A stretch of DNA of 40,797 nt from Deltaproteobacteria bacterium. Lineage in GTDB: Bacteria; Desulfobacterota; Deferrimicrobia; J040. Below the pieces are notes generated by a model that saw only the letters and a program-made list of their open reading frames with translations, was not told the origin of the DNA and ran no database searches. Within the stretch, counting starts at the first letter, position 1, and the number at the start of each line of letters is the position of its first letter. A program made the position numbers and the translations under genes. Of the stretch, positions 10,721 to 40,080 are shown piece after piece. The stretch is from NCBI GenBank assembly GCA_003696505.1, contig RFHC01000076.1:1-40797 (forward strand), in the 5' to 3' direction.

Positions 10721-10731
10721 GGGAGGCTTCC

Positions 10732-18452: not shown

Positions 18453-18458
18453 TATAAT
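18453..18458 (+). promoter_or_regulatory. possible -10 box (TATAAT) for the Grx-like selenoprotein gene
   Basis: The sequence agagTATAATtgaacg lies 30 nt upstream of ATG 18488 and is followed by SD GGGAGGAG (18472-18479). No clear -35 was found. Confidence 0.3.
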
Positions 18459-18487
18459 TGAACGTAAAAAAAGGGAGGAGTCGGGAT

Positions 18488-21955: not shown

Positions 21956-22456
21956 TCACTCCCTCTCTTCGAGGAGGAGAATCACCTCTTTGATGACCTC
22001 TGAGGCCCGTATGAGGGAATCCACGGAAATCCTCTCGTCGACGCCGTGTATCCTCCCCAGTTCGCTCCTCTCGATGACGCAGGGGAGAATCCCGTAGACG
22101 GGAATGCCGAGCCCCCTGTAATAACGGGAGTCGGTGAAACCCGTCGAGAGGTAGGGAAGGACGACGCTCCCGGGGTAGACCCTCTCCAGGGCAGACCGGA
22201 CGAGGGAGAAGTAATCCGTCACGGGAGACCCGGAAGGTGAGGCCGCGTAAATCACCTCAACTTCGATACCGTCAGGAGAGAGAAACTCTTCTATCTCCCG
22301 CGCCACCTTCTCCGGGTCCTTTCCCGGCAGGATTCTCACGTCCACCGTCGCCTCCGCTTTTGCCGGAATCACGTTTGGCTTGAAACCCGCATCGAGCATC
22401 GTGAGGGCGACGGTGTTCCTCGTTATCGCCTCCATCTCCGGAATGGTCCTCGCCAC
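21956..22456 (-). CDS. M20-family metallopeptidase, C-terminal part (frameshifted; see 22423..23223)
   Basis: TRNTVALTMLDAGFKPNVIPAKAEATVDVRILPG is the dimerisation-domain end. STGFTDSRYY and GRIHGVDERISV are C-terminal metal and active-site segments. The track start is only an internal GTG. Confidence 0.7.
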   Translation of the reverse strand: MARTIPEMEAITRNTVALTMLDAGFKPNVIPAKAEATVDVRILPGKDPEKVAREIEEFLSPDGIEVEVIYAASPSGSPVTDYFSLVRSALERVYPGSVVLPYLSTGFTDSRYYRGLGIPVYGILPCVIERSELGRIHGVDERISVDSLIRASEVIKEVILLLEERE

Positions 22457-23223
22457 CTCTCCTCGAGCGAATCTCCCGTAAGCCCCCTCTTTCTCAACTC
22501 CTCGAGCATGAGCCTCACCGGCTCAGTGATTTCCGGCTGCACTTCCCTCGTGAGGAGCCGGTTGAGCGCCCTGATGAGCCGGGCAGGGGGGTCGGAAGGC
22601 GTGGGGCGGGACCCGTGCCCCGCTCTCCCCCGCGCGGTGAGGCGGAGCCAGACGGGACCTTTCTCCCACACGTTGAGGAGGAAGAAGTCTCCCTCCCCGA
22701 AGAGGCCCTTCACTCCGATGCCTCCCTCGTTGAGCCCGAAACAGTTTCCGAAGATGTTCCCGAAGGAGGAGACGAAATATCCGGCCCCCTCGTCTCCTCC
22801 CACCTCCTCGTCGGGGTTGGCCACGAAGAAGACCTTCTTCCTCAGCTTTCCCTTTTCCGAAATTGCCTTGAGCGCCCCGAAGAGGTGTGCCATGCCGAGG
22901 CCCTTCGTATCGAGGGTCCCCCTCCCCAGCACGAATCCGTCCCTCACTTCTCCGGAGAAGGGGGGAAAGGACCATTCCTCCTCCCTGGCGGGCACGACGT
23001 CCATGTGGTGAATGAGGACGACTCCCGGCTCTTCCTCCCCTCCCAGGTTGACCCAGAGGGATTCCTTCTCCGGCGAAACGCCCCCCTTCTCCGGGGAGAA
23101 ACCGTGGTCCCGGAGGAGAGCTTCGAGGAAATCCACGGCTTTCGAGCAGTCGCCGGGAGGATTCACCGTCTCTATCCTGATGTACTCGCAGAGAGACTCC
23201 ACAAGTTTTTCGTCCAGTGACAT
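22423..23223 (-). CDS. M20-family metallopeptidase, N-terminal part (frameshifted)
   Basis: Metal-ligand motifs: VVLIHHMDVVP (His), GRGTLDTKG (Asp), NPDEEVGG (Glu-Glu). EKGPVWLRLTARGRAGHGSRP marks the start of the dimerisation domain. The frame ends in the nonsense tail WRGPFRRWRR. It overlaps the second ORF by 34 nt. Confidence 0.7.
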   Translation of the reverse strand: MSLDEKLVESLCEYIRIETVNPPGDCSKAVDFLEALLRDHGFSPEKGGVSPEKESLWVNLGGEEEPGVVLIHHMDVVPAREEEWSFPPFSGEVRDGFVLGRGTLDTKGLGMAHLFGALKAISEKGKLRKKVFFVANPDEEVGGDEGAGYFVSSFGNIFGNCFGLNEGGIGVKGLFGEGDFFLLNVWEKGPVWLRLTARGRAGHGSRPTPSDPPARLIRALNRLLTREVQPEITEPVRLMLEELRKRGLTGDSLEERWRGPFRRWRR

Positions 23224-23867: not shown

Positions 23868-23884
23868 CTCGCCCCGGCATCCCC

Positions 23885-29522: not shown

Positions 29523-30710
29523 ATGGAACGAAGGAGAACGGTGAAAAGAGGAAAGGCCACACTCGCTCTCATCCTCCTGGCCTCCCTTTTCCTCCTGCCC
29601 TCACTCTCGGCGGCAGGGTCGAAGAGGACAGCCCCCCTCAAAGTGGGAGTCCTCTGCCCTCTCTCCGGCCCATTCGCACCGGGAGGGAAGTCCTTTCTGA
29701 GAAGCGTTACCCTTGCTGCTGAGGAAATCAACGAGAAGGGGGGCGTCCTGGGAAGACCCATCCTGCTGGTAACGGGAGACTCCGAGGGAAAGGTGGGGCG
29801 CGCGCGTAACGAGGCGCTCCGCCTCGTGGACAGCGAGGGGGTAAAATTCCTCATCGGCGCTTACCTCTCGGAAGAGACGCTGGGCGTCGTGGAAGTAGCG
29901 GCGGAGAGAAAAGTCCTCCTCCTCGTGCCCATCTCCGCCACCGAGAGAATCACCGGTCTGGTCCGGGAAAACCCTGACCGATACAGCACCGTTTTCCGGA
30001 CAGGCTTCTCCATCTCGCGGTGGGCAGAGATGATTGCCCGTTTTATTAGTGCACAGGGGTCCAGAAAGCCTGCTTTTCTCGGAACGGCAATCCGGTGGAA
30101 CCGTGAACTGGCGGAAAAACTCGAGGAGGTCCTTTCCCGGCAGGGTATTAAACTCATCATCGAAGACTTCTATTCCCCGAGGCGGCCCGTCATCAAACCG
30201 ATACTCCTCCGGCTCGCCCTGAAAAAACCCGACCTCATCATCCTGGGAGACCCGGGGAAGAATTCCATCCAGGCGGTCCGGGAGATGGAGGAACTGGGAT
30301 TGAAAACCCCCATCCTCTCCGTGGGGGGGACGCTCGCAGACGAGAGGGTCGCGAAAGACCTCTCGCCGAAGGTTCCCCTCTACGCCCTTGCCGCCGCTTA
30401 CCGGGGAGCGTCTCCAGAGGCCGATAGATACTTCGACGCCTTCCGGAAAAAGTACGGATATTTCCCCTCCGGATACAGCGACACTCTCCCGGGAGACGCC
30501 CTGAGGATTCTCGCCGGCGCTCTCCAAAAGGCTCGCGAGTGGTCCCCGAAATCTGTGGCTTCACTTCTCGAAAAGGGAACCTTTCCCGGTGTTTCGGGCG
30601 CCTACTCCTTCGACGAATCCCATCAGGCGGAGTGGGGGACCCCCTCCCTGTCGGGAGTGGTCGTCAGGTGGGAGGGGTCACGCTTCGTCCCCCTGAAACC
30701 GGAAAAATGA
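29523..30710 (+). CDS. ABC transporter substrate-binding protein, LivJ/LivK-like (type I periplasmic binding fold)
   Basis: Signal peptide KRGKATLALILLASLFLLPSLSAAG, followed by LKVGVLCPLSGPFAPGGKS...INEKGGVLGRPI. The start is ATG 29523 or, more likely, in-frame GTG 29541, which is preceded by AAGGAG. The track ORF start at 28671 is a spurious extension. Confidence 0.85.
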   Translation: MERRRTVKRGKATLALILLASLFLLPSLSAAGSKRTAPLKVGVLCPLSGPFAPGGKSFLRSVTLAAEEINEKGGVLGRPILLVTGDSEGKVGRARNEALRLVDSEGVKFLIGAYLSEETLGVVEVAAERKVLLLVPISATERITGLVRENPDRYSTVFRTGFSISRWAEMIARFISAQGSRKPAFLGTAIRWNRELAEKLEEVLSRQGIKLIIEDFYSPRRPVIKPILLRLALKKPDLIILGDPGKNSIQAVREMEELGLKTPILSVGGTLADERVAKDLSPKVPLYALAAAYRGASPEADRYFDAFRKKYGYFPSGYSDTLPGDALRILAGALQKAREWSPKSVASLLEKGTFPGVSGAYSFDESHQAEWGTPSLSGVVVRWEGSRFVPLKPEK

Positions 30711-31567
30711 ACATCCTCGCCCAGAGCCTGGCAGGCGGATTTTTCCTGGGAATCTCCTACGCCGTGCTCTCGGCAGGGCTCGCCCTCACCGTCAACGTCG
30801 TGGAGATAATCAACCTCTCCCACGGCGCCTTCTACCTCATGGGAGCCTACCTCGCCTACTCCGCCTCGAGTTTCCCCGGACTCAGCCTCCTCTTCCTGGC
30901 CGCATCCGCCGCTGGCCCCGCCCTCCTCGGCCTCTTCATCGCCCGGACTCTCGTCAATCCGCTCAGGAAGGACCACTTCTCCATCGCAGTGGGGACACTG
31001 GGGCTTGCAATCCTCTTCGAGCAGGCGGCAGACCTCCTCTGGGGGGACAGGGCGCTCTCCGTCCATCCCGGCGCTCCTCTCGGAGAAATCCTCGGGGTGA
31101 AAATCTATCCCTGGCATGCCGGCGAAATCCTCCTCTCCGGAGCGGTCTTCATCCTCTTCTTCCTCCTTCCGAGGACGAAACTGGGCCTGGCCATGCGTGT
31201 CCTCGCGGAAGACGAGGAAATGGCAGAAAGCGTGGGGATAAACACGAACGCGGTGAGAGCAACGGCGTTCTCGCTCTCATGCGCCCTCGCGTCGGTTGCG
31301 GGCTTCGTCTCCGCCCCGGGCCTCGTCCTGACACCGACAGCAGGACGGATGCCCCTCATCTTTGCCCTGGTCATCGTCATTCTCGCGGGGACGAGGAGAC
31401 TCCTTCCCGTCGCCGCCCTCTCTCTCGGACTCGGCATGGTCACCTTCGGCCTCGCCCTCGCCACGAGCGCCTACGTGGAATACATCCTCCTCCTCACCGC
31501 CGTGCTCGTCGTCGTTTCCGTCAGGAGAGGGGGCCTCTTCACCCTGAAGATAGAGAGGGACTACTGA
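30707..31567 (+). CDS. livH: branched-chain amino-acid-type ABC permease (LivH-like)
   Basis: ATGA overlap with the SBP stop. The sequence MNILAQSLAGGFFLGISYAVLSAGLALTVNVVEIINLSHGAFYLMGAY is the typical LivH N-terminus. Confidence 0.85.
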   Translation: MNILAQSLAGGFFLGISYAVLSAGLALTVNVVEIINLSHGAFYLMGAYLAYSASSFPGLSLLFLAASAAGPALLGLFIARTLVNPLRKDHFSIAVGTLGLAILFEQAADLLWGDRALSVHPGAPLGEILGVKIYPWHAGEILLSGAVFILFFLLPRTKLGLAMRVLAEDEEMAESVGINTNAVRATAFSLSCALASVAGFVSAPGLVLTPTAGRMPLIFALVIVILAGTRRLLPVAALSLGLGMVTFGLALATSAYVEYILLLTAVLVVVSVRRGGLFTLKIERDY

Positions 31568-32508
31568 TGCGGGGAAAAAGCCTGATCCCCTTCATCCTCG
31601 GCCTGGCACTCCTCCTCCCCCTCCTCGGCCCGGGCCCTTATCACCTTTCTCTCCTCAACTCCGCCCTCGTCATCACCCTCCTCACTCTCTCCTGGGACCT
31701 CCTGGGAGGGGTGGCGGGACAGGTGAGTCTGGGACAGGCTCTCTTCCTGGGGCTGGGAGCATACGGTTTCTCGCTCCTCTCCACTTACCTCCCCCCGGCG
31801 GGTGCGGCTCTGGCAACAGCGGTGGTCGGGACAGCTTTCGCTGCCTTTTTCGGGCTTTTCGCTTCTCGCCTGGAGGGGATATTCTTCGCCCTGTTCACCC
31901 TGTGCAGCGCTGAGGTCTTCCACGAGGCGACGATGAATATTCCCTTCATCCTGAAGGGAGTTGAGGTGGGAGGGGAAGGAGGTGTCCCCTGCCTGGGGGG
32001 TGCGGGAATCCTCTCCCTCAGGGGGCTCGTCGTGGAGTACTACTCCCTCCTCCTCTTCACAGCCTCTGTCGGGTGGTTCCTCCTGCGGACTCTCCGCCAC
32101 CCCGTTGGACTGAAACTGCGGGGGATAGCGGAGAACGAACTGCTCGCCCGGGCAACGGGCCTCCCCGTGGAGAGACTCAAGTTTGGGGCGTTCGTTGCCT
32201 CGGGAGTCCTCGGAGTGGTGGCCGGGATATTTTCCGCCCTGCATTCCGGGAGGGCCACGCCGTCCGATTTCTCCCTTGAACTTTCTTTCCAGGCAGCGAC
32301 TCTCTCCGCCCTCGGGGGAAGGGGCACGGTTACAGGGCCTGCCCTCACAGCCGTAGCAGTGTCCTACCTCTTTGGGGCTCTGGACGTCCCTCCCCAGGTG
32401 AGGCTCTCACTCTATGCCATTCTCCTCCCCGCCATCCTTCTCGACCTTCCGAGAAAGGCCCTCGGCCTCCTCAGGGGGAGCAGGACGCCGCTCTCCTCCC
32501 GTCAGTGA
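31567..32508 (+). CDS. livM: branched-chain amino-acid-type ABC permease (LivM-like)
   Basis: TGATG overlap with livH. LSWDLLGGVAGQVSLGQALFLGLGAYG is the LivM hallmark. Confidence 0.85.
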   Translation: MRGKSLIPFILGLALLLPLLGPGPYHLSLLNSALVITLLTLSWDLLGGVAGQVSLGQALFLGLGAYGFSLLSTYLPPAGAALATAVVGTAFAAFFGLFASRLEGIFFALFTLCSAEVFHEATMNIPFILKGVEVGGEGGVPCLGGAGILSLRGLVVEYYSLLLFTASVGWFLLRTLRHPVGLKLRGIAENELLARATGLPVERLKFGAFVASGVLGVVAGIFSALHSGRATPSDFSLELSFQAATLSALGGRGTVTGPALTAVAVSYLFGALDVPPQVRLSLYAILLPAILLDLPRKALGLLRGSRTPLSSRQ

Positions 32509-32663
32509 GCCAGGTCTCCCATCGTAAAGTATTCCCTCAGCGCCCTCTCCACGACGAGAGACTCGGGAATCCGGTGCTCCCTCGAGAAATCGCGCAACCG
32601 GCGGGCCAGGTCGCGGGGAAGTTCTATCTGGAGAACCTCCTTCTCCTCCCTGTCAGCCTTCAT
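32502..32663 (-). CDS. ribbon-helix-helix (CopG-like) small protein, 53 aa
   Basis: The sequence is MKADREEKEVLQIELPRDLARRLRDFSREHRIPESLVVERALREYFTMGDLAH. It shows a beta-strand (LQIELP) plus two helices, the RHH pattern. GGGAGGAG lies 9 nt upstream. The ATG overlaps the livF-like 3' end by 11 nt. The stop overlaps the convergent livM stop by 7 nt. It is below the track cut-off. Confidence 0.5.
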   Translation of the reverse strand: MKADREEKEVLQIELPRDLARRLRDFSREHRIPESLVVERALREYFTMGDLAH

Positions 32664-33402
32664 TTCCGCAACTCCTCCCTGAACCGTAATACTGGCGGAA
32701 CCGCCTCTTCAATTTCTCCACCTCGCCCGGCCCTCCCCTGCCGGACATGACGACTTCCCCGTTGAGGAAGACCAGGTACTCGTCCGCCTCGGGGAGAATT
32801 TCGTCAAGGTCGTGCTCCGCAACGACGAGGGTCAATCCCTCCCCCTTCAACTCCCTGAGGAGGGAGACGATTTTCTCCCTCATCGAGAGGGAGAGGCCGA
32901 GGAAGGGTTCGTCGAAGAGCATCACCCGGGGAGACGAGAGAAGCGCCCTCCCGACGACGAGCATCTGCCTCTGCCCTCCGCTCAAGACTCCCGCCAGGTC
33001 CTTCCTGTGCCGGGCAAGGTCGGGGAAAAGGTCGTACACCCTCTCCAGGTCCCTGAGCGCCTCCTTCCTCTTTCTCAGATAGGCGCCGACGAGGAGGTTC
33101 TCCTCCACCGTCATGGAGAGCCCCACCCGGGCGCGGTCAGGAATGTACTGAATTCCCATCCTCACTCTCTCGTGCGGCGGAAGGCGGGTCACGTTTTCTC
33201 CCAGGTAAAATATTTTCCCCGAGGTGACGGGCACCAGCCCGGCAATGGCTTTCAGGAGGGTCGTTTTCCCGGACCCGTTCGCTCCGAGCACCGCCGTAAG
33301 AGTCCCGGCTTTGAAATCGCAGGATGCCTCCTTCAACGCACAGACGGAGTCGAACCTGACGAGAAGTTTCCTCACCTTCAGAATCGGTTCGACCTTCTTC
33401 AA
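32653..33402 (-). CDS. livF: ABC transporter ATP-binding protein (LivF-like)
   Basis: ABC motifs: GANGSGKTT (Walker A), LSGGQRQMLVVGRAL (signature), VMLFDEP (Walker B), AEHD (H-loop). 4-nt overlap with the upstream ATPase gene. Confidence 0.85.
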   Translation of the reverse strand: MKKVEPILKVRKLLVRFDSVCALKEASCDFKAGTLTAVLGANGSGKTTLLKAIAGLVPVTSGKIFYLGENVTRLPPHERVRMGIQYIPDRARVGLSMTVEENLLVGAYLRKRKEALRDLERVYDLFPDLARHRKDLAGVLSGGQRQMLVVGRALLSSPRVMLFDEPFLGLSLSMREKIVSLLRELKGEGLTLVVAEHDLDEILPEADEYLVFLNGEVVMSGRGGPGEVEKLKRRFRQYYGSGRSCGNEG

Positions 33403-34106
33403 CGGAGAGCCTCCCTTACCCCTTCGGGGGAGCCTTCGTAAACGACGAGACCGTCTTCGATGACGAGGCAGCGCTGGCAGAGCTCTTCGACGACGAGGAG
33501 GTTGTGTGAGACGAGGACGAAGGATATCCCCTCTGCGTTGAGGGAGAGCATCAGTTCCTCCACCTCACGCTGGTCCGCCACAGAGAGAGCGGAAAAAATC
33601 TCGTCCAGGAGGATGACCCTCGGCCGGAGTGCCACAGCCCGGGCAATCTCCAGACGTCTCAGGCATCCCTGGGAAAGTTTCCCCGCCTCCAGGTTTCCCT
33701 GACGGAAAAGCCCCGTCCTCTCGAGAACGGCCTCTACGATTTCGTCCACGCTCTTTGCGTCTCCTCCCGACGCGAGCGCCGCAAGCCGGACCGTTTCCCT
33801 GACGGTGAAGGAGCGGAATGTCTGGGGGACCTGAAAGGTCCTCACGATTCCCGCCCTGACGAACTCCTCCATCGGGAGCCCGGTCATCCTCTTCCCTGTG
33901 AAGAAAACGTCACCCCTGTCCGGCTTCAGGAGACCCGATACGATGTTGAGGAGGGTTGTCTTCCCCGAACCGTTCGGTCCGGTGAGCCCGAGTATTTCCC
34001 CTTCGGCAAGGGTGAAGGAAACGCCTCTGAGCGCGCGGAAGGAATTGAATCTCTTCTCAACCTGGACGGCTTCGAGGATGGGACCTCTTTCGCTCCTCCC
34101 GGACAA
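33399..34106 (-). CDS. livG: ABC transporter ATP-binding protein (LivG-like)
   Basis: GPNGSGKTT (Walker A), LSQGCLRRLEIARAV (LivG-type signature) and ILLDEIFSAL (slightly atypical Walker B/D-loop). It starts 12 nt after the U32 stop. Confidence 0.8.
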   Translation of the reverse strand: MSGRSERGPILEAVQVEKRFNSFRALRGVSFTLAEGEILGLTGPNGSGKTTLLNIVSGLLKPDRGDVFFTGKRMTGLPMEEFVRAGIVRTFQVPQTFRSFTVRETVRLAALASGGDAKSVDEIVEAVLERTGLFRQGNLEAGKLSQGCLRRLEIARAVALRPRVILLDEIFSALSVADQREVEELMLSLNAEGISFVLVSHNLLVVEELCQRCLVIEDGLVVYEGSPEGVREALR

Positions 34107-34118
34107 GGAACCCCCGGT

Positions 34119-35066
34119 TCAGAGAGTGGCTTCCCTGATGAGGGAGCGGGTCTTCTCTGTCCTCTCGGCGTCCCTCCTCGATTGAATCCTCTCCAGCTCT
34201 TCCCTGTACGGACGGATGTCGACGCCTTTCCCCCTTTCGATGCACTCGTCGATGAGGCGCCTGTAGAGGGACACCATCTCCCCCACGAGTCCGGGAGAGT
34301 ACTCCCTTCCCTGTATCTTCAGGGTCGTCACGCCCGCCTCAATGAGGGCCGGAATGTCGTCGAAGATGAAATAGGCGGTGTTGGGAAGGACCACGCTCTT
34401 CTCCCACTCTCCCCCATCCTGCCTCACCTCCCACTCGGTGAGACAGATGCGGTAGCAGAGACCGCCCCGGTTGGGGGACCCGCGGAAGTGTTTTTTCCCC
34501 GTCTCGTCGGGGGAGTGCTCAAACTTCGTGTACGAAGACATGGTGCAGCGGCCGAGGAAGGTGTAGCAGGTGGTGGCGTGGACGAGGACCTCGACGCCGA
34601 CGCCCACCTTTTCCCGTATTTCGCGGATGTCGTCGAGGGGCATCCTGCACTCCGTCACCACCTGAGAAGCCCCTGCATCCTTGTAAAGGAGCGCGTCGTA
34701 AAGGTTGACGATGGTGCACCCGACGCTGGCGTGGACCTTGATTTCGGGGAATTCCTCCTTCACGATTCGCATGAGCCCCGGGTCGGTGAGAATCACGTCG
34801 TCGATGGGGAAGGAAGCAAACTTCTCCATCTTCCGGCGGAAAAGGTCCACCTCGTCCGAAGCGGGGAGGGTGTTTATCGCCACCCTGATTTTCTTCCCCC
34901 TCTCGTGGAGGAAGTCGGCACTCCTCTTAATAGTCTCGTCGTCCATTTCGTATTCCCTGCGCCGGCGGGACCATCCGAGTGCCCCCACGTAGACGGCATC
35001 CGCGCCGCCCTCCGCACAGGCCTGGACCATTTCGAACGTCCCTCCGGACGCGAGAAGCTCAACCAT
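34119..35066 (-). CDS. U32-family protein, UbiU-like
   Basis: U32 features: ELLASGGTFEMVQACAEGGADAVYVG and the Cys pattern TTCYTFLGRC-x29-CYRIC (C-x6-C...C-x3-C). ATG 35066 has GGGAGGTG 8 nt upstream. The track ATG at 35090 has no SD. Confidence 0.8.
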   Translation of the reverse strand: MVELLASGGTFEMVQACAEGGADAVYVGALGWSRRRREYEMDDETIKRSADFLHERGKKIRVAINTLPASDEVDLFRRKMEKFASFPIDDVILTDPGLMRIVKEEFPEIKVHASVGCTIVNLYDALLYKDAGASQVVTECRMPLDDIREIREKVGVGVEVLVHATTCYTFLGRCTMSSYTKFEHSPDETGKKHFRGSPNRGGLCYRICLTEWEVRQDGGEWEKSVVLPNTAYFIFDDIPALIEAGVTTLKIQGREYSPGLVGEMVSLYRRLIDECIERGKGVDIRPYREELERIQSRRDAERTEKTRSLIREATL

Positions 35067-35118
35067 CGAGATGCACCTCCCTGTTTTCATTCCGGAATTT
35101 CAATTTTACCACAGGAAA

Positions 35119-36039
35119 TTATACGCCTCCTGCTGCGGCGCGGTCAAAATACTTCCTCCCCGTGGTCCCGAAGAAATACCCGTTGCAGAGTCCGTAACGG
35201 GCAAGGGACCTTAACTCTTCAAGACGGCTTTCCGACGGCACCCACCGTCCCGCCAGGAGAGCCTCGAGAGAATCCCTGTATATCTTCCCCACCCGATTCC
35301 TGTATTCGGGGGTCTCGTATCCCCCCTCTATTCTGAAAAAGGAAAAACCGCCCTCCACAACCCTGTCCAGGTGCTCGTAAAGGCAAAAGTCGAGACCCGA
35401 CGAGACCCCCTTCCCCACGTGGCGAATTACCCATTCCCCCCTCGTCAGCCAGGCGGGCTCGAGGCAGGCCTCGGGGCAGACCTCCTCCCCCTTCTCTTCG
35501 GTGAAGAAGCAGTCGGGGACGACCCCGAGAGGTATCTTTCCGTGGAGGACGACCGTCACGTCGACTCCTCCGTTCTCCCTGATATCCACGCACTCCTTGT
35601 AACTCACCTCGGGGTTGGGCCTGACCCGCACCACCCCCCAGGTGCTGAGGTAGCGCGCAGAAACGTCGGTGTACACGTTTGCGAAGGGGCCCGTGTGGGC
35701 GGGAATGGAGATGCCCCTCTCCTTCATGAGGGTGAGCACCCCCAGGTTGTTCACCTCGACGCCGTCCACTTTCGCCCGGACAGCAAGGTCGAGAGCCTTT
35801 TCGACGACGGGGATCTCCTTCATCCGGGGGGCAGCAGGGGTGGTCAGGTAAATTTTCTTCCCCTCGCCCCTGAGAATCTCCACCGCCGCAAAGAGGTCCG
35901 ATTCTTCCGTCATGAGGTTCCCCCTGTAGAGGTGGCAGAGGGGATTCCCCAGGTAAAAGGCGTCGTAGAGCGACCTGTCCGTCTGCTGGAGGTCCTCCAG
36001 GGAAAAGAGGTCGGTTGAAAGCTCAAATTCTCTCGACAT
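35119..36039 (-). CDS. U32-family protein, UbiV-like
   Basis: It has four Cys at about positions 36, 178, 189 and 193 (NPLCH...PDCFF...VCPEAC) and a TIM-barrel-like U32 core (KIYLTTP...GVEVNNLG). ATG 36039 is preceded by GGAGGT. The track start is a TTG one codon earlier. Confidence 0.7.
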   Translation of the reverse strand: MSREFELSTDLFSLEDLQQTDRSLYDAFYLGNPLCHLYRGNLMTEESDLFAAVEILRGEGKKIYLTTPAAPRMKEIPVVEKALDLAVRAKVDGVEVNNLGVLTLMKERGISIPAHTGPFANVYTDVSARYLSTWGVVRVRPNPEVSYKECVDIRENGGVDVTVVLHGKIPLGVVPDCFFTEEKGEEVCPEACLEPAWLTRGEWVIRHVGKGVSSGLDFCLYEHLDRVVEGGFSFFRIEGGYETPEYRNRVGKIYRDSLEALLAGRWVPSESRLEELRSLARYGLCNGYFFGTTGRKYFDRAAAGGV

Positions 36040-36079
36040 CAAGGACTACCTCCGGAATTCTCCCGTCAGGAGGGTGGAT

Positions 36080-36085
36080 ATTATA
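36080..36085 (-). promoter_or_regulatory. possible -10 box (TATAAT) ahead of the U32 pair
   Basis: The minus strand reads ttttttgtaTATAATatccaccc, about 40 nt upstream of ATG 36039, in the only AT-rich gap of this gene block. Confidence 0.3.
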
Positions 36086-36110
36086 TACAAAAAATTCCCT
36101 CCCGGGAAAA

Positions 36111-38249
36111 TCACGCCTCCTGCGTTACGACCCGAAACTCCACTTCCAGCTGTTTTTTCTCCTCCGGGAGCGGGAGGAGGAAGTCCACCTCCGAGCCCTG
36201 GTAAACCTTTTCGAGTCCCGATTCAGAGAGGGAGACGGTGTGAACTGGCTTCACCACAGCATCGACGGGAAGGGAAGGTTCGATGACGAAGGTGAATCCC
36301 TGCCACCCGTCCCTCACTCCCAGGCCCTCGATTCCAGAGAGAATTTTCTCTTCTTCGAGGAAAAAACCCTCCGCGTCCACCGGGTAGGCGACGAAAACCC
36401 TCTTCTCGTCACGGGGAGAGAGGAAGTTGAGGTGCCACCGGTTGACGTAGACCAGGGGTTTCTCTCCCGGGCCCAACCGGAGGACTCTCACTCGAAAGCG
36501 GGCTTCCTCCCTCTTCCCCTCCATAATGACCACCTTCTCAATCTCCAGCGTCTCGCCTCCCACGGTCACGGAGTAACTCATCCGGACGGCTCCCTTCTCG
36601 CCGCTCATCATGCAGGACGGGACGGGACATCTCCCCTCGTTGACGAAGAGGGGCTCTCTCCCTCTCCCCGTCAAATCGGCGGCCACGGTCCCCTCCTCGA
36701 AAAAGAGGTCACGGAAAGACCTGAGGACGAAACGGTCGAAGACGACGGCCGAGGGGTCCACTCCCTCCTTCACCTGAAGGGTGTCGTGGATGCTCACCGC
36801 CTCCCGCTCCGGATTCCCCCCTCCCGCTGAGAAGAGGCGGGAGTGGTACCCTTCTCTCCGCCTCGTGAGGACGTTCAGAGCGTTGAACCCCCGCTCCAGG
36901 AGAGAAAACTCGCTCACCGTCCCCCCGTCCGACGGGTGGAGGAGGAGGACAACCTTGCCCGACCGGATGATGACCTCTTCCTCACCGTCCCTGTTCAGGT
37001 CCCCTCTGAGTATTTCTATCCACTTCTCCTTCCCCTTCTTCAGAATGCGGGACGCCGTCTTCTCCGCCCGCAGGAGATTCCGGTAAAAGGCATCTCGCAG
37101 GTGAGGAAGGTAAAGACCGCCGAAAACGCCGTGCCAGAAGGGGTCGTTGGCCTGCGCCCTGTAGAGGGAATCCACCATGAGGTCCCTCTCTGCCTCCCCG
37201 GCTGAGGGAAGCGCCCGGTTCACCATTTCAGAGACGATGAGCATCCTCTTGTGCATCTGGTTCGATTCCTCGTACTTGCGAAAGAAGGCGCGGAAGTTCC
37301 CACCCGAGACCAAGTCCTTCATCTCCCCGAGCCTCCCCTCCCTCCTCTCTCTGAGAATCGTGCCGAACACCTCTGCCTTCTTCGGAGGAAGAGTCCACTC
37401 GCCCATTTCCGGATATGAGGCGGAAGGAAGGTAAATTCTCCCCCGCGGGGGAAACCTGTCGACGTAGCTGGCGAAGGTAGAGGTCCTCAGCCACTCCTTC
37501 TCCTCCACGATTTTGTCGAAGAACCTTTTCAGCCATCCCCCCTCGTAGACGTGAGAATACGTTCCGGGCCAAATCCCGAACTTCTCACCGTCGTCTGCGA
37601 AGACCGCTGCAGGGGCTTTCCTGCCGGGACGGCGGAGGGTCCTGAGATAATCGATCGTCTCCCCGGGGTCGCGGAAGGGTATCGTGTAGCGGAGGAGTTC
37701 GAGTCCGGGGAAAACCTTGACGACGTGCCCGTTGTATTCGGTGATGAAGTACCCGTCCAGTTCGTCTCCCGACGCTCCGGCGAGAAGAAAGTGGTAGTCG
37801 TCGAGGGGGAGATACTCGACACCCGCTTTCCGGAGGGTCAGGGGGAGAGAAGGCTCCCACACCCTTTCGGCGAGCCATATTCCCCTCGGTTTCCTCCCGA
37901 AGAGAGAGCGAATCTTTTCGGCCATTTTCTCCAGCTGCCCCACCCGGTCTCTCTCCGGGATAACGGGAAGGACGGGCTCGTACACTCCACCCCCGAGAAT
38001 CTCCACCTGTCCCCTTTCAACGAGGCGGTAGAGGAGAGCGGAGAACTCCTCTTTCTTCTTCAGGAGCCAGGTGAGGAGGTGCCCCGAGTAGTGGAGCGTC
38101 ACCTTGATTTCCGGGTATCCCGCCAGGACTCTGAGAAAAGGGATGTACGCCTTCTCCGCAGCCTCCTCCATGACTTCCTCGAAGTTGCCCACGGGCTGGT
38201 GGTTGTGAAAACAGAGGAGAAGATAGACCTTCCCGTCACCCTCGCCCAT
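36111..38249 (-). CDS. glycoside hydrolase family 57 enzyme (alpha-amylase / 4-alpha-glucanotransferase type, 712 aa)
   Basis: GH57 conserved regions: LCFHNHQPVGNF, GQVEILGG, WLAERVWEP (nucleophile Glu region) and FADDGEKFG (acid/base Asp region). A long C-terminal beta-rich extension follows. Confidence 0.85.
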   Translation of the reverse strand: MGEGDGKVYLLLCFHNHQPVGNFEEVMEEAAEKAYIPFLRVLAGYPEIKVTLHYSGHLLTWLLKKKEEFSALLYRLVERGQVEILGGGVYEPVLPVIPERDRVGQLEKMAEKIRSLFGRKPRGIWLAERVWEPSLPLTLRKAGVEYLPLDDYHFLLAGASGDELDGYFITEYNGHVVKVFPGLELLRYTIPFRDPGETIDYLRTLRRPGRKAPAAVFADDGEKFGIWPGTYSHVYEGGWLKRFFDKIVEEKEWLRTSTFASYVDRFPPRGRIYLPSASYPEMGEWTLPPKKAEVFGTILRERREGRLGEMKDLVSGGNFRAFFRKYEESNQMHKRMLIVSEMVNRALPSAGEAERDLMVDSLYRAQANDPFWHGVFGGLYLPHLRDAFYRNLLRAEKTASRILKKGKEKWIEILRGDLNRDGEEEVIIRSGKVVLLLHPSDGGTVSEFSLLERGFNALNVLTRRREGYHSRLFSAGGGNPEREAVSIHDTLQVKEGVDPSAVVFDRFVLRSFRDLFFEEGTVAADLTGRGREPLFVNEGRCPVPSCMMSGEKGAVRMSYSVTVGGETLEIEKVVIMEGKREEARFRVRVLRLGPGEKPLVYVNRWHLNFLSPRDEKRVFVAYPVDAEGFFLEEEKILSGIEGLGVRDGWQGFTFVIEPSLPVDAVVKPVHTVSLSESGLEKVYQGSEVDFLLPLPEEKKQLEVEFRVVTQEA

Positions 38250-38252
38250 GCC

Positions 38253-38666
38253 TCACTCCTCCTTTCCCCCTTCCTGGGCGTACTCGACGAGGACCCCGAA
38301 GGCTGAGCGGGGGTGGACGAAGGCCACCTTCGTCCCCTCCACCCCCTGCCGGGGCTCTTCGTCAATCATCCTTCCCCCCTTCTCCTTCGTCCTGCGAATC
38401 GCCTCCTCGATGTCTCCCACGGCGAAGCAGATGTGGTGAATCCCCTCTCCCCTCTTCTCGATGAAACGGCCGATGGGGCCGTCCGGCGAGGTAGAGGCCA
38501 GAAGCTCTATCTTCGTCTCTCCCACCCGGAATATGGCCGTCTTCACCTTCTGGTCCGGCACCTCTTCGTATCCGGCAAACTGGAGTCCCAGGACGTCCCG
38601 GTAGAAGGATACGGCCTTCTCCAGGTCGGCCACGGCGATTCCGATGTGCTGGATTTTCTCAATCAT
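38253..38666 (-). CDS. mce: methylmalonyl-CoA epimerase (VOC/glyoxalase fold)
   Basis: Motifs seen: IQHIGIAVADLEKAVSFYRDVLG, GEGIHHICFAV and VAFVHP. 137 aa, with GGAGGG as SD. Confidence 0.85.
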   Translation of the reverse strand: MIEKIQHIGIAVADLEKAVSFYRDVLGLQFAGYEEVPDQKVKTAIFRVGETKIELLASTSPDGPIGRFIEKRGEGIHHICFAVGDIEEAIRRTKEKGGRMIDEEPRQGVEGTKVAFVHPRSAFGVLVEYAQEGGKEE

Positions 38667-40080
38667 GGTGCTTTCCCTCCTTATCTCTCAATAATCTCAG
38701 GGTTTCCCATTGAATTCCACCGAAATCTCCGTTGGACATGAAGAGGACAAGGTCTCCCTCCCTCAGGTACTCCGCCAGGAAGGGAGGAATCTCCTCTCTC
38801 GCGGAAAAGGAGAACGCCTCCTTTCCCCCCATCTTAATCGCTCCGGCAACCCGGGAAGGGTCGAACCTCTCCTCCTCGGGAATCCTCTCTGCCCTGTAGG
38901 GAGGAGCGACGACGGCCGCATCCGCTTCGCCGAGAGCCCGGACGAACTCTTTCTCGAAAATCCTCCGCCTGGAGGTGTTCGAGCGAGGCTCGAAAACGGC
39001 CACGAGACGGCGAGGAGAGTAAAATTCCCTCACCGCACGTATCGTTTCCGCCACGGCCGTCGGATGGTGGGCAAAATCGTCGACCACGATGACCCCTCCG
39101 GCCTCTCCGAGGAGCATCTGCCTCCTCGCCACTCCCCGGAATCGGGAGAGCGACGGGAGAGTCTCTTCCAGAGGGACGCCCGCCGTTTCGAGGACGAGGC
39201 AGGCGGAGAAGGCGTTTATCAGGTTGTGAACGCCCGGGACCCGGAGCGACACCTCCCACTCCCTCCCCCCGTAGAGGAAGCTCCCTTTCACGAATCCCCT
39301 TCCCGTCTCACAGCCGACGAGGACGGCGTCGGAATCGCCCCGGCGGGAGATGGTCACGACCCGGCAGGGAGCCCCGCTGACGACTTCCCTGACGAGGGGG
39401 AAATCGACGCAGGCGACGACCGTCCCCTCCTGAGGCATGTGCCGAACCAGCTCCCGGAAAGCCGACTCCACCTCCCCCACGTCCCTGTAGATGTCGGCGT
39501 GGTCAAACTCGACGCTCGTGATGAGGAGGTGATGGGGGCGGTAGTGAAAGAATTTCGGTCGTTTGTCGAAGTAGGCGCTGTCGTACTCGTCCCCCTCGAC
39601 AACGAAAAACTCCCCCGACCCGAGGCGGGAAGGGCCTCCCAGGTCCTCAGCTATTCCCCCGACGAAGTGGGAGGGGTCGCGCCCCGACTCCCGGAGAGCG
39701 AAGGCCGCCATGGATGCCGTCGTCGTCTTCCCGTGGGTGCCGGCCACGACGACCCTCCTTTTCCCCTTCAGGAAGCAGGAGTAGAGGGCAGAGGGGAGGG
39801 ACTCCGCTGACACTCCCATCTCACGGAGCCGGACGGCTTCCGGATTATCGCGGGTCACGGCGTTTCCGACGACGTAAAGGTCCCAGCCCCGGGGCACGGA
39901 TTCCCCGTCGTAGGGAGTGCTCACCCTGATTCCCAGGTCCCTCAGGTAATCAGAAACGGGAGGGTAGAGCGCCCCGTCAGACCCTGCCACCTCCCATCCC
40001 GCCTGGACGAAAAGACCTGCCAGCGCGGACATTCCCACGCCCCCCACCGCCACCATGTAGACCCGCTTTCTCTCAGCCAC
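38659..40080 (-). CDS. mpl: UDP-N-acetylmuramate:L-alanyl-gamma-D-glutamyl-meso-DAP ligase (Mpl; MurC-related)
   Basis: Motifs seen: VAVGGVGMSALAG, VVGNAVTRDNPE (Mpl-type) and AGTHGKTTT (P-loop). GTG start with GGGAGGTG upstream. It overlaps both neighbouring genes by 8 nt. Confidence 0.8.
   Translation of the reverse strand: MAERKRVYMVAVGGVGMSALAGLFVQAGWEVAGSDGALYPPVSDYLRDLGIRVSTPYDGESVPRGWDLYVVGNAVTRDNPEAVRLREMGVSAESLPSALYSCFLKGKRRVVVAGTHGKTTTASMAAFALRESGRDPSHFVGGIAEDLGGPSRLGSGEFFVVEGDEYDSAYFDKRPKFFHYRPHHLLITSVEFDHADIYRDVGEVESAFRELVRHMPQEGTVVACVDFPLVREVVSGAPCRVVTISRRGDSDAVLVGCETGRGFVKGSFLYGGREWEVSLRVPGVHNLINAFSACLVLETAGVPLEETLPSLSRFRGVARRQMLLGEAGGVIVVDDFAHHPTAVAETIRAVREFYSPRRLVAVFEPRSNTSRRRIFEKEFVRALGEADAAVVAPPYRAERIPEEERFDPSRVAGAIKMGGKEAFSFSAREEIPPFLAEYLREGDLVLFMSNGDFGGIQWETLRLLRDKEGKHHD

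What the first reader, a model, noticed from the sequence alone, without database searches (positions are those of the whole stretch)
32502..36042. UbiV/UbiU-like U32 pair co-transcribed with the two ABC ATPases and an RHH protein, without UbiT or quinone genes
Two adjacent U32 genes show the paired architecture of the anaerobic ubiquinone hydroxylase UbiU-UbiV. The first has Cys at about 36, 178, 189 and 193. From memory, that closely mirrors E. coli UbiV C39/C180/C193/C197. The second has C-x6-C...C-x3-C, like UbiU.

No SCP2-type UbiT gene and no ubi or men gene lies nearby. The gene order is V then U. The pair is followed after 12 nt by livG-like and livF-like ATPases and then by an overlapping RHH gene. 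A U32 heterodimer embedded in a transporter-energising operon hints at a substrate other than ubiquinone. It could instead mean hydroxylation is co-regulated with uptake of an aromatic or amino-acid precursor. Prephenate is the reported O-donor for U32 hydroxylases.
Basis: partly seen in the sequence, partly recalled or inferred. Interest (0 to 1): 0.65.

Follow-up and report, generated by a model that had tools for sequence, protein, structure and literature searches.

The report
Uncharacterised U32 iron-sulfur pair with dedicated importer
Two adjacent U32 iron-sulfur enzyme genes are real but are not the ubiquinone enzymes UbiU/UbiV; they belong to an unstudied family that different bacterial phyla keep next to its own ABC importer, or next to CoA-activating enzymes, which suggests oxygen-free processing of an imported organic acid.

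Summary
On the minus strand lie U32-A (35119-36039), U32-B (34119-35066/35090), livG-like, livF-like and a 53-aa RHH gene, with gaps of 12 nt or less after U32-B. U32-A's four Cys align with the UbiV cluster ligands. U32-B has the TrhP-type CX6C...CX3C motif plus the essential Glu.

Neither protein is a UbiU/UbiV orthologue. Scores are 59 and 125 bits against cut-offs of 275 and 440. They are 20-32% identical to every E. coli U32 protein.

The ATPases belong to a convergent livK-H-M operon on the plus strand. In 41 related loci the pair faces a complete livKHMGF-RHH operon. Only this window and one MAG have livG-livF-RHH inverted into the U32 transcription unit.

A reverse search from LivK recovered the U32 genes in 15 of 17 informative loci. 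In Acidobacteriota and Methylomirabilota, U32-A/B travel with a third U32 gene, an acyl-CoA ligase, two family-III CoA-transferases and IclR. Desulfovirgula-type loci combine importer, ligase and U32 trio.

Best reading: a two-subunit, O2-independent U32 oxidase or hydroxylase acting on an imported carboxylate. The substrate is unknown. A separate RlhA-like U32 gene beside fusA probably covers the RNA role.

The parts
36080..36108 (-). Putative start of the U32 transcription unit. A terminator-like hairpin lies just after the GH57 stop codon. A TATAAT box preceded by TG follows, then a GGAGG ribosome-binding site ahead of U32-A.
   Evidence: Terminator-like site 36108-36095. Sequence read. The TG...TATAAT box is also present upstream of U32-A in the relative L001. 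This is a consensus match only and has not been tested.
35119..36039 (-). U32-A, the UbiV-type U32 Fe-S subunit (306 aa). The ORF list starts it one codon earlier, at TTG 36042.
   Evidence: PF01136 at E 2.4e-24. UbiV model 58.6 bits against a cut-off of 275. The four Cys align with the UbiV ligands and are at least 98% conserved; C220 and C286 are also invariant. The AF2 model has pLDDT 91 and its best solved fold is U32 Mk0906, 5D88. The position matching the TrhP essential Glu is Thr here but Glu in 77 of 82 relatives.
35118..35147 (-). Sigma-70-like promoter consensus TTGACC-18-TATAAT lying across the U32-A stop codon, upstream of U32-B.
   Evidence: An 11 of 12 match. Both hexamers recur in L001 although the spacer differs. 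They overlap conserved codons (FDR and V-stop), so the conservation may reflect coding constraint.
34119..35090 (-). U32-B, the TrhP/RlhA-type U32 Fe-S subunit and probable catalytic subunit. The likelier start is ATG 35066 (315 aa), which is preceded by AGGAAGG.
   Evidence: PF01136 at E 8.7e-44. TrhP model 142 bits and UbiU model 125 bits, against cut-offs of 534 and 440. CX6C...CX3C aligns with the TrhP cysteines. E167 aligns with the essential TrhP E162 and is invariant in 70 of 70 sequences (PMC6599085).
33399..34106 (-). LivG-like ABC ATPase.
   Evidence: ABC_tran at E 1.2e-29. Best NCBIfam matches are UrtD, LptB and LivG. It is orthologous to the fourth gene of the livKHMGF operons in relatives.
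32653..33402 (-). LivF-like ABC ATPase.
   Evidence: ABC_tran at E 8.2e-28. Best NCBIfam matches are UrtE and LivF.
32502..32663 (-). 53-aa ribbon-helix-helix protein, proposed to be the local transcription regulator of the module.
   Evidence: Weak RHH_3 match, E 0.002. It is conserved in 31 distinct homologues with the consensus TV.LP..L...L..FCR...V....VVERAL.EYFREGD.SH at the C-terminus. It stays beside the U32 pair in loci that have lost the transporter genes (L009, L170).
29523..30710 (+). LivK-like periplasmic substrate-binding protein (395 aa, with a signal peptide). It belongs to a subfamily dedicated to this module.
   Evidence: Orthologues are 44-61% identical across Deferrimicrobia-type MAGs and Desulfovirgula. 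In a reverse scan, 15 of 17 informative loci carried U32-A/B. Matches to solved structures are weak and include amino-acid-binding and aromatic-keto-acid-binding proteins, so the ligand is not resolved.
30707..31567 (+). LivH-like permease.
   Evidence: The ORF. Its orthologues carry BPD_transp_2. Gene-order matches.
31567..32508 (+). LivM-like permease. Its 3' end overlaps the 3' end of the convergent RHH gene by 7 nt.
   Evidence: The ORFs. Its orthologues carry BPD_transp_2. Gene-order matches.

Best explanation
**What is there.** The region encodes a two-subunit cytoplasmic U32 iron-sulfur enzyme.
- U32-A is UbiV-like in its cluster-binding cysteines. In this lineage it has lost the family's conserved Glu, so it probably serves in electron transfer or as a scaffold.
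- U32-B keeps the TrhP/RlhA-type CX6C...CX3C motif and the essential Glu, so it is probably the catalytic subunit.

**Family.** The pair belongs to a distinct, uncharacterised U32 clade. It is neither UbiU/UbiV nor an RNA hydroxylase.

**Proposed function (inferred).** The enzyme forms one functional module with a dedicated Liv-type (HAAT) ABC importer and a small RHH regulator.
- The importer takes up an organic acid, probably an aromatic or heteroaromatic carboxylate.
- By analogy with the known U32 enzymes, U32-A/B carries out an O2-independent, probably prephenate-dependent, oxidation or hydroxylation of that compound or of its CoA thioester.

**The local arrangement (shown).** The U32 genes read straight into livG-livF-RHH because that three-gene block was inverted in this lineage. 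The ancestral arrangement is U32-A, U32-B facing a complete livK-H-M-G-F-RHH operon.

**Shown:** gene content, motifs, family separation, conserved two-way linkage, the inversion.
**Inferred:** complex formation, the chemistry, the substrate class, the role of the RHH protein.
For: 1. **Distinct family.**
   - NCBIfam scores are far below the equivalog cut-offs.
   - Identity to E. coli UbiU, UbiV, TrhP and RlhA is 20-32% with no preference.
   - In an NJ tree the U32-A clade has 100% support and is only weakly sister to UbiV (67%). U32-B groups with a third paralogue, U32-C (100%), next to UbiU/TrhP/RlhA-N.
   - Only 45 of 1.84 billion cluster representatives match U32-A at E 1e-30 or better.
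2. **Fe-S and catalytic residues are conserved**.
3. **The two proteins probably work together.**
   - The genes are adjacent in every locus whose contig reaches the neighbouring gene.
   - Natural fusion proteins exist with a U32-B-like N-terminal half and a U32-A-like C-terminal half: P0164 (632 aa) and P0191 (597 aa).
4. **Link to the importer.**
   - 41 pair-type loci face a livKHMGF operon, 38 of them with a detected RHH gene.
   - In the reverse scan from LivK, 15 of 17 informative metagenome loci carry the U32 genes. A sixteenth carries the CoA-enzyme set instead.
5. **Link to carboxylate activation.**
   - In 30 informative trio-type loci (Acidobacteriota, Methylomirabilota and others), 20 have an AMP-forming acyl-CoA ligase and 19 have paired family-III CoA-transferases. 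IclR, Amidohydro_2 and ABM genes also recur.
   - Desulfovirgula thermocuniculi DSM 16036 and two related metagenome loci carry livKHMGF - CoA ligase - U32-C - U32-A - U32-B on one strand, with CoA-transferase genes alongside.
6. **The inversion** occurs only in the window and in L001.
7. **A separate canonical U32 gene.** A 792-aa, two-domain U32 gene is 37% identical to the RlhA N-terminal domain. It lies 15149-17527 and overlaps the start of fusA (EF-G). It can account for an RNA role.
8. **Chemistry.** The known U32 enzymes are linked to O2-independent, prephenate-dependent hydroxylation (PMC10990095, PMC6599085, PMC6747719).
Against: - No U32 enzyme has been shown to act on a free small molecule or a CoA ester. 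Even for UbiUV and TrhP, direct catalysis has not been demonstrated in vitro (PMC10990095).
- The window and the Deferrimicrobia-type loci have no CoA ligase or CoA-transferase within about 10 kb.
- The importer is dispensable. Close relatives (L170-L172, L009) have lost livKHMGF but keep U32-A, U32-B and RHH. One locus (L155) keeps the importer without the U32 pair.
- Part of the linkage within Deferrimicrobia-type genomes could be inherited synteny. DoxX, Usp, CitMHS and MglAB are also conserved nearby.
- The binding protein's nearest solved relatives include ordinary amino-acid binders.
Confidence: 0.55

Rival explanations
1. The pair is an RNA-modifying hydroxylase like the B. subtilis TrhP1/TrhP2 (YrrO/YrrN) tandem pair that makes tRNA ho5U34. 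Its position next to the transporter is inherited synteny without functional meaning.
For: - The only demonstrated U32 roles besides ubiquinone are RNA hydroxylations. One of them uses two tandem U32 genes that are both required (PMC6599085).
- U32-B keeps the Glu and the Cys residues that are essential in TrhP and RlhA.
- The importer can be lost while the pair is kept.
Against: - The linkage holds in both directions and recurs in unrelated phyla with different gene orders.
- In other phyla the same genes sit with CoA ligases, CoA-transferases and IclR regulators, which is a small-molecule context.
- U32-B lacks the C-terminal PF16325 domain of TrhP/YrrO.
- No tRNA methyltransferase gene lies nearby.
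- The window already has an RlhA-like U32 gene coupled to fusA.
Confidence: 0.12
2. The pair carries out a biosynthetic hydroxylation of an endogenous lipid or cofactor, such as a menaquinone-type or other aromatic cofactor. The importer supplies a precursor or the O-donor (prephenate or a related aromatic keto acid) rather than a growth substrate.
For: - The subunit make-up resembles UbiU-UbiV.
- The U32 pair persists without the importer in some strains.
- Weak structural relatives of LivK include binding proteins crystallised with aromatic keto acids. The ligand assignment for those entries (4DQD, 3SG0) is from my own recollection; the matches themselves are.
Against: - No prenyltransferase, methyltransferase, SCP2 or other quinone or cofactor gene appears in the window, in the Pfam-annotated relatives, or among the recurrent flanking gene clusters.
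- IclR regulators, CoA ligases and CoA-transferases are more typical of catabolic clusters.
Confidence: 0.13
3. The genes are plain UbiV/UbiU orthologues that make ubiquinone anaerobically, with UbiT and the ubi genes located elsewhere in the genome.
For: - Paired U32 genes.
- The U32-A cysteines match the UbiV ligands.
- U32-A is weakly sister to UbiV in a small tree.
Against: - Scores are 58.6 against 275 (UbiV model) and 125 against 440 (UbiU model).
- U32-B lacks UbiU's fourth ligand position.
- The gene order is reversed relative to ubiU-ubiV.
- No UbiT was seen in the window or the Pfam-annotated relatives.
- The family occurs in Deferrimicrobiota, Acidobacteriota, Methylomirabilota and Bacillota. 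UbiUVT and ubiquinone are features of Alpha-, Beta- and Gammaproteobacteria (PMC6747719).
Confidence: 0.03
4. They are true peptidases (the historical 'collagenase' annotation of U32) whose amino-acid products are taken up by the Liv transporter.
For: Database names such as 'putative protease' or 'collagenase-related protease', and the Liv family's classical amino-acid substrates.
Against: - Both proteins lack signal peptides, whereas LivK has one (sequences).
- The invariant Fe-S cysteine sets and the Glu match the hydroxylase-type U32 proteins.
- The CoA-enzyme context in other phyla does not fit proteolysis.
Confidence: 0.03

Closest known systems
UbiU-UbiV of E. coli (O2-independent, prephenate-dependent ubiquinone hydroxylase; PMC6747719, PMC10990095)
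   Same: - Two adjacent U32 genes of about 300-330 aa.
- One subunit has its first Cys far upstream, followed by C-x10/12-C-x3-C. U32-A aligns with all four UbiV ligands.
- The other subunit has a CX6C start.
- Probable heterodimer, with one [4Fe-4S] cluster expected per subunit.
   Different: - Only 20-29% identity, far below the equivalog cut-offs.
- U32-B's fourth Cys follows the TrhP pattern, not the UbiU pattern.
- The gene order is V-like then U-like.
- No UbiT or ubi genes nearby.
- The hosts are outside the ubiquinone-making Proteobacteria.
- Linked to an ABC importer, or to CoA enzymes, instead.
TrhP1/TrhP2 (YrrO/YrrN) of B. subtilis and TrhP/RlhA of E. coli (RNA C5-hydroxylation; PMC6599085)
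   Same: - Tandem U32 paralogues that are both needed.
- U32-B shares the essential Glu and the CX6C...CX3C cysteines of TrhP and RlhA.
   Different: - No PF16325 C-terminal domain.
- No RNA methyltransferase neighbour.
- A separate RlhA-like gene exists in the same window.
- The genomic context is transport and acyl-CoA metabolism.
Uncharacterised U32 subfamilies of Kimura et al. 2017, as summarised in PMC6747719. One is PepU32#6, whose reference sequence D5MIQ1 I take to be from a Methylomirabilis genome; that organism assignment is from my own recollection.
   Same: Methylomirabilota carry the U32-C/U32-A/U32-B trio described here. At least one of the three genes therefore probably falls in an already catalogued but unstudied subfamily.
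   Different: I could not retrieve D5MIQ1 to see which paralogue it is. No function, partner or gene context has been reported for that group in the papers searched.
Liv/HAAT-type ABC importers embedded in anaerobic aromatic-acid catabolic clusters, for example benzoate, 4-hydroxybenzoate or coumarate uptake systems of Rhodopseudomonas and Aromatoleum (from general knowledge, not tested here)
   Same: - A five-component LivKHMGF importer next to the enzymes that act on the imported acid.
- CoA ligase and IclR-type regulation in the trio-type loci.
   Different: - The enzymes here are U32 proteins, not benzoyl-CoA pathway enzymes.
- The binding protein has no close characterised relative.

Membership tests
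UbiU/UbiV (anaerobic ubiquinone hydroxylase) | Sequence reaches the NCBIfam equivalog cut-offs (UbiV NF047965, 275 bits; UbiU NF047963, 440 bits) | tested here: not met
   U32-A scores 58.6 bits and U32-B 125.4 bits. Blastp gives 25% and 26% identity, no better than to RlhA or TrhP.
UbiU/UbiV (anaerobic ubiquinone hydroxylase) | UbiV-type ligand set CXnCX12CX3C (C39, C180, C193, C197) | tested here: met
   U32-A C36/C178/C189/C193 occupy the same alignment columns and are at least 98% conserved in 82 sequences. The spacing is C-x10-C-x3-C.
UbiU/UbiV (anaerobic ubiquinone hydroxylase) | UbiU-type ligand set CX6CX16CX38C (C169, C176, C193, C232) | tested here: not met
   U32-B aligns with the first three positions. 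Its fourth Cys is at the TrhP C197 position, and nothing aligns with UbiU C232.
UbiU/UbiV (anaerobic ubiquinone hydroxylase) | Co-occurrence with the SCP2 protein UbiT and with ubi genes, in a ubiquinone-producing proteobacterium | tested here: not met
   - No SCP2 or ubi gene in the window or in the annotated relatives.
- Hosts are Deferrimicrobiota, Acidobacteriota, Methylomirabilota and Bacillota.
- A whole-genome inventory was not possible.
UbiU/UbiV (anaerobic ubiquinone hydroxylase) | The two proteins form a heterodimer | not testable with these tools
   Indirect support only: the genes are always adjacent, and natural U32-B/U32-A fusion proteins exist (P0164, P0191).
TrhP1/TrhP2 and TrhP (tRNA U34 hydroxylation) | The larger subunit carries the C-terminal U32 domain PF16325, and the sequence reaches the TrhP equivalog cut-off (534 bits) | tested here: not met
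   Only PF01136 was found in both proteins. The TrhP model gives 141.8 and 54.1 bits.
TrhP1/TrhP2 and TrhP (tRNA U34 hydroxylation) | Essential Glu and CX6C cysteines of the U32 motif (TrhP E162, C170, C177) | tested here: met
   U32-B has E167, C175 and C182, invariant in 70 sequences. In U32-A of this window the Glu position is Thr.
U32 Fe-S 'oxidase' superfamily (PF01136) | U32 domain with a conserved four-Cys set | tested here: met
   The AF2 model of U32-A has 5D88 (U32 Mk0906) as its best solved-fold match.
U32 Fe-S 'oxidase' superfamily (PF01136) | O2-independent, prephenate-dependent hydroxylation activity | not testable with these tools
   Needs genetics, isotope labelling or an enzyme assay.
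HAAT (Liv-type) ABC importer | One Peripla_BP_6-type binding protein, two BPD_transp_2 permeases and two ATPases encoded together | tested here: met
   All five genes are present at 29523-34106, split over two strands.

The most novel reading that the evidence does not exclude
U32-A/B, with U32-C in other phyla, is the first U32 enzyme devoted to catabolism. It would be an O2-independent, prephenate-type hydroxylase that attacks an imported aromatic or heteroaromatic acid, or its CoA thioester. It would be widespread in anoxic peat, wetland and groundwater bacteria (Acidobacteriota, Methylomirabilota, Deferrimicrobiota) and in thermophilic sulfate reducers. This would be a new route for activating aromatic compounds without oxygen, molybdenum hydroxylases or radical enzymes.
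Probability: 0.3. Interest if true: 0.85.

Novelty: new variant of a known kind. Interest (0 to 1): 0.6.

Why it matters
Only three functions are known for the large U32 family: ubiquinone, tRNA and rRNA hydroxylation. According to the papers read, most of its subfamilies are unassigned.

This clade has an unusually informative gene context. It has a dedicated importer, an RHH or IclR regulator, a CoA ligase and CoA-transferases. It also occurs in a cultured organism, Desulfovirgula thermocuniculi DSM 16036. The question "what else do prephenate-dependent hydroxylases act on?" therefore becomes directly testable.

If the substrate is a plant-derived aromatic acid, the system bears on carbon turnover in anoxic peat and sediments, where these bacteria live.

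Tried and rejected
- **Solved structures.** Sequence and profile searches of the PDB with U32-A and U32-B found nothing useful. The fold search found only the uncharacterised Mk0906. No structural clue to the substrate emerged.
- **Literature.** Searches combining U32 with CoA ligase, CoA-transferase, IclR or anaerobic degradation found no paper describing such clusters.
- **Inversion mechanism.** I looked for inverted repeats at the borders of the inverted livG-livF-RHH block. None lies at the junctions, so the mechanism of inversion is unknown.
- **MglB/MglA.** The two genes just upstream of U32-A in Deferrimicrobia-type loci were first considered as extra subunits. From their sequences they read as MglB/MglA (a Roadblock-like protein and a Ras-like GTPase), that is, housekeeping synteny (Pfam labels).
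- **LivK ligand.** I tried to infer the ligand from its solved relatives. The matches are weak and mixed.
- **CoA enzymes.** NCBIfam places the CoA ligase near, but below, the benzoate-CoA ligase family cut-off (327 against 375 bits). The CoA-transferases are far from any equivalog. This is not decisive.
- **Window search.** A search of the window for the CoA ligase, CoA-transferase and small-protein genes of the trio-type loci found none.
- **Enoyl-CoA hydratase.** The gene at 10729-11520 was checked as a possible MenB. It is not one.
- **Methylomirabilota neighbours.** The genes downstream of the trio in Methylomirabilota loci gave no pathway hint on reading their sequences (a TPR-like repeat protein and unrecognised proteins; not scanned against Pfam).
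- **Taxonomy.** The aldehyde dehydrogenase gave only 'Deltaproteobacteria bacterium' MAGs as the nearest named relatives.
- **Tree.** A first tree calculation timed out and was redone with a faster distance method.

Full report
**1. What is in the sequence**

Between 32502 and 36042 the minus strand carries five tightly packed genes.

- U32-A: 35119..36042. The ATG at 36039, behind a GGAGG, is the likelier start and gives the 306-aa protein found in the database.
- U32-B: 34119..35090. The homologues are 315 aa. The ATG at 35066 behind AGGAAGG fits them.
- A LivG-like ATPase: 33399..34106.
- A LivF-like ATPase: 32653..33402.
- A 53-aa ORF: 32502..32663.

Both U32 proteins match Pfam PF01136 strongly, at E 2.4e-24 and 8.7e-44. 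Both ATPases match ABC_tran. The small ORF matches RHH_3 only weakly, but it is clearly conserved.

There are 12 nt between U32-B and livG. livG/livF overlap by 4 nt and livF/RHH by 11 nt.

It carries livK (29523..30710), livH (30707..31567) and livM (31567..32508), which converge on the RHH gene and overlap it by 7 nt. The two ATPases are therefore the missing parts of a complete five-component Liv-type importer lying next door.

**2. The cysteine observation**

In an alignment of 82 family members with the E. coli proteins, U32-A C36, C178, C189 and C193 fall in the same columns as UbiV C39, C180, C193 and C197. They are at least 98% conserved. C220 and C286 are also invariant. The UbiV residues are the experimentally defined [4Fe-4S] ligands (PMC6747719).

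U32-B C175, C182, C212 and C216 align with TrhP C170, C177, C193 and C197. Nothing aligns with UbiU's fourth ligand, C232. U32-B is therefore TrhP/RlhA-like in its motif, not UbiU-like.

U32-B E167 aligns with TrhP E162 and is invariant in 70 sequences. That Glu is essential in TrhP and RlhA (PMC6599085).

The matching position in U32-A is Glu in 77 of 82 relatives. It is Thr in this window and its nearest relative. This suggests that U32-A here is not the catalytic subunit.

**3. Not UbiU/UbiV orthologues**

- NCBIfam scores are 58.6 bits (UbiV model, cut-off 275) for U32-A and 125.4 bits (UbiU model, cut-off 440) for U32-B. The TrhP model scores U32-B slightly higher, at 141.8 bits.
- Against E. 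coli UbiU, UbiV, TrhP and RlhA (sequences taken from NC_000913), all comparisons give 20-32% identity with no clear preference.
- In a bootstrapped NJ tree, U32-A forms its own clade (100%) and is only weakly sister to UbiV (67%). U32-B groups with a third paralogue, U32-C (100%), beside UbiU, TrhP and the RlhA N-domain.
- That tree has few reference sequences and lacks YrrN/YrrO and the other Kimura subfamilies. It shows separation, not final placement.
- A full HMMER pass over 1.84 billion cluster representatives found only 45 at E 1e-30 or better. Beyond these the hits are long two-domain U32 proteins.
- No solved structure matches by sequence. A confident AF2 model of U32-A (pLDDT 91) matches best the uncharacterised U32 protein Mk0906, 5D88.

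**4. The gene neighbourhood elsewhere**

A scan of one genome per GTDB species with a U32-A profile found 200 relatives. Eighty loci were fetched. Two context types appear.

*Type 1, the pair.*
- It occurs in Deferrimicrobia-type and 'Deltaproteobacteria' MAGs and in the unnamed lineage of this window.
- U32-A and U32-B are followed by a convergent livK-H-M-G-F-RHH operon.
- Counting genome and metagenome loci together, 41 loci have this convergent arrangement, 38 of them with a detectable RHH gene.

*Type 2, the trio.*
- It occurs in Acidobacteriota, Methylomirabilota/NC10, Rokubacteria and others.
- The order is U32-C, U32-A, U32-B, with no Liv genes in 32 loci.
- Of 30 informative trio loci, 20 have an AMP-forming acyl-CoA ligase and 19 have paired family-III CoA-transferases within 10 kb.
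- Other recurrent neighbours are IclR regulators, an Amidohydro_2 protein, an ABM protein and small Cys-rich proteins without a Pfam match.

*The bridging loci.*
- The cultured thermophile Desulfovirgula thermocuniculi DSM 16036 (Bacillota) and two related metagenome contigs join the two types.
- They carry livK-H-M-G-F, a CoA ligase, U32-C, U32-A and U32-B on one strand, with CoA-transferase genes beside them.

**5. The reverse test**

The LivK orthologues are unusually similar across phyla (44-61% identical, 81 invariant columns). A profile of them was scanned against the metagenome collection.

Of the 17 loci with at least 5.5 kb downstream of livK, 15 carry U32-B and U32-A.
- One of the remaining two (L134) carries the CoA ligase, the small proteins and a CoA-transferase before the contig ends.
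- The other (L155) has the RHH gene followed directly by mglA/mglB. That is the U32 pair deleted from an otherwise standard locus.

This binding-protein subfamily is thus almost always found with these U32 genes.

The dependence is not symmetrical. L009 and the close relatives L170-L172 keep U32-A, U32-B and the RHH gene but have lost livKHMGF cleanly. L170-L172 are fully syntenic with the window. The RHH gene is therefore the most faithful partner of the U32 pair. This is why I propose it as the module's regulator, in the place held by IclR in trio-type loci.

**6. Why the ATPases are co-transcribed here**

Oriented on the U32 genes, the common order is A> B> <RHH <F <G <M <H <K. The window and L001 (GCA_964429585.1, 62-86% identical proteins) have A> B> G> F> RHH> <M <H <K.

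That is exactly an inversion of the G-F-RHH block. No inverted repeats mark its borders.

That the cell tolerates driving the importer's ATPases from the U32 transcription unit fits the idea that the two are needed together. It does not prove it.

*Possible signals.*
- A terminator-like hairpin follows the upstream GH57 gene. A TATAAT box with an upstream TG lies ahead of U32-A. The box is also present in L001.
- A TTGACC-18-TATAAT match lies across the U32-A stop codon and is also conserved in L001. Coding constraint could explain that conservation.

**7. Do the two proteins work together?**

U32-A and U32-B genes are adjacent in every locus whose contig reaches the neighbouring gene. The exhaustive search also turned up two natural fusion proteins, P0164 (632 aa) and P0191 (597 aa). 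Their N-terminal halves are most like U32-B and their C-terminal halves most like U32-A. This is classic indirect evidence for a complex. A multimer model could not be run with the tools available.

**8. Mechanism proposed**

*Shown.*
- A conserved pair of U32 proteins with intact Fe-S ligand sets.
- A catalytic-type Glu in U32-B.
- Conserved, two-way linkage to a specific importer and RHH gene.
- Linkage of the same proteins to carboxylate-activating enzymes in other phyla.

*Inferred.*
- The importer brings in an organic acid.
- U32-A/B performs an O2-independent oxidation or hydroxylation on that acid or on its CoA thioester. By analogy with UbiUV, TrhP and RlhA, prephenate would be the O-donor (PMC10990095).
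- U32-A passes electrons through its cluster.
- The RHH protein controls expression.

The IclR regulators, the ligase (nearest the benzoate-CoA ligase family at 327 bits, cut-off 375), the Amidohydro_2 and ABM neighbours, and the peat, wetland and groundwater origin of many host MAGs make an aromatic or heteroaromatic acid the most likely class. This is a guess at the class, not an identification.

I put the overall model at about 0.55. The sub-claims "distinct from UbiUV" and "inversion of a conserved module" are much firmer.

**9. Rival explanations**

- **RNA-modifying pair, as in TrhP1/TrhP2.** This is the main rival, at about 0.12. It is weakened by the context data. It is also weakened by a separate 792-aa, two-domain U32 gene in the same window (15149-17527). 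That gene is 37% identical to the RlhA N-domain, has the classic CX6CX15CX3C motif, and overlaps the start of a genuine fusA (EF-G above the TIGR00484 cut-off).
- **Biosynthetic hydroxylation, with the importer supplying a precursor or O-donor.** This remains possible, at about 0.13.
- **Plain UbiUV.** Unlikely, at about 0.03.
- **True peptidases.** Unlikely, at about 0.03.

**10. Novelty**

I found no paper describing U32 genes in such clusters. The reviews and primary papers read state that most U32 subfamilies are uncharacterised.

One catalogued but unstudied subfamily, PepU32#6, has a reference sequence (D5MIQ1) that I take from recollection to come from a Methylomirabilis genome. Part of this system has therefore probably been seen as a sequence cluster before.

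I rate it a new variant of a known kind: U32 Fe-S enzymes, here tied to uptake and acyl-CoA metabolism. Interest is moderate to high because the context makes a new substrate class testable and a cultured host exists.

**Limits**

- No whole-genome inventory was possible, so the ubi/men question is answered only by taxonomy and local context.
Its nearest named relatives are 'Deltaproteobacteria bacterium' MAGs.
- Counts of loci include related genomes, so they are not independent events. The independent events are the pair-type lineage, the trio-type phyla, the Desulfovirgula-type operon, L134, and the two kinds of deletion.

Noticed in passing
window 15149-17527 (-), with 13105-15138 (-) and 17524-18522 (-): A third U32 gene of 792 aa with two U32 stretches, an RlhA-like architecture.
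- It is 37% identical to the RlhA N-terminal domain.
- It carries the classic CX6CX15CX3C motif.
- Its end overlaps the start of a genuine fusA (EF-G, 744 bits against a cut-off of 659).
- An FdhE-like Cys-rich protein gene precedes it.
- An approximately 800-aa U32 gene also sits at the corresponding position in the syntenic relatives L170-L172 (annotation only, not compared by sequence).
It is probably the RNA-type U32 of this organism.
   Followed up: partly
window 21956-23223 (-): An M20 peptidase is split into two overlapping ORFs, 266 aa (22423..23223) and 166 aa (21956..22456). The syntenic gene in L170-L172 is one intact ORF of 466 aa. This is a frameshift: either a pseudogene or an assembly error.
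   Followed up: partly
window 32502-32508: The stop-proximal ends of the convergent RHH (-) and livM (+) genes overlap by 7 nt. This leaves no room for a terminator between the two converging transcription units.
   Followed up: no
window 32502-32663 and homologues in about 50 loci: The small RHH protein ends in a nearly invariant tail, EYF(R/H)(E/M)GD(M/I/V)(S/A)H, at the very C-terminus. It also has a conserved FCR motif. This may be a ligand-binding or metal-binding tail.
   Followed up: partly
P0164 (632 aa) and P0191 (597 aa), from the exhaustive protein search: Natural single-chain fusions of a U32-B-like half and a U32-A-like half. The order is B then A, the opposite of the gene order in the loci.
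   Followed up: partly
L170-L172 and L009; L155: Presence/absence variation of the module.
- Some close relatives have lost livKHMGF cleanly but keep U32-A, U32-B and RHH.
- One Deferrimicrobia-type contig keeps livKHMGF-RHH but lacks the U32 pair, with mglA/mglB directly adjacent.
- Contigs from the same metagenome series (L090-L093) do carry livK next to DoxX-Usp-CitMHS; L090 and L092 extend into livH and livM.
   Followed up: partly
trio-type loci, e.g. L029 5032-6318 and 12042-12305; L075 17469-18107: Small conserved proteins without any Pfam match accompany the CoA-transferase, ligase and U32 trio genes in Methylomirabilota and Acidobacteriota. They include a Cys-rich protein of about 135 aa, a protein of about 125-210 aa with the motif VEFYYSS...FPCD, and an 87-aa zinc-ribbon-like protein. 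The first is also present in the Desulfovirgula-type contigs L138 and L154.
   Followed up: no
L014, L016, L034 (Acidobacteriaceae), e.g. L034 5971-8595 (-): In these loci the U32 trio lies next to a divergently transcribed protein of about 870-1050 aa. From reading its sequence it has what look like several PAS-like repeats, a sigma-54 activator core (the GAFTGA motif is present) and a probable C-terminal HTH. It would be a sensor-regulator in place of IclR or RHH. It was not scanned against Pfam.
   Followed up: no
window 23271-24391 (-): An MglB (Roadblock/LC7-like)/MglA (Ras-like GTPase) pair. In Deferrimicrobia-type genomes the same pair sits directly upstream of U32-A. Here it is 11 kb away, which shows how the neighbourhood has been reshuffled.
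   Followed up: partly
window 36111-40630 (-): U32-A is preceded on the same strand by a run of genes with almost no spacing: a beta-lactamase-family gene (cut at its start), an Mpl-type Mur ligase, a glyoxalase and a GH57 glycoside hydrolase/branching-enzyme-like gene. The same order is found in L001, L006 and L170.
   Followed up: no
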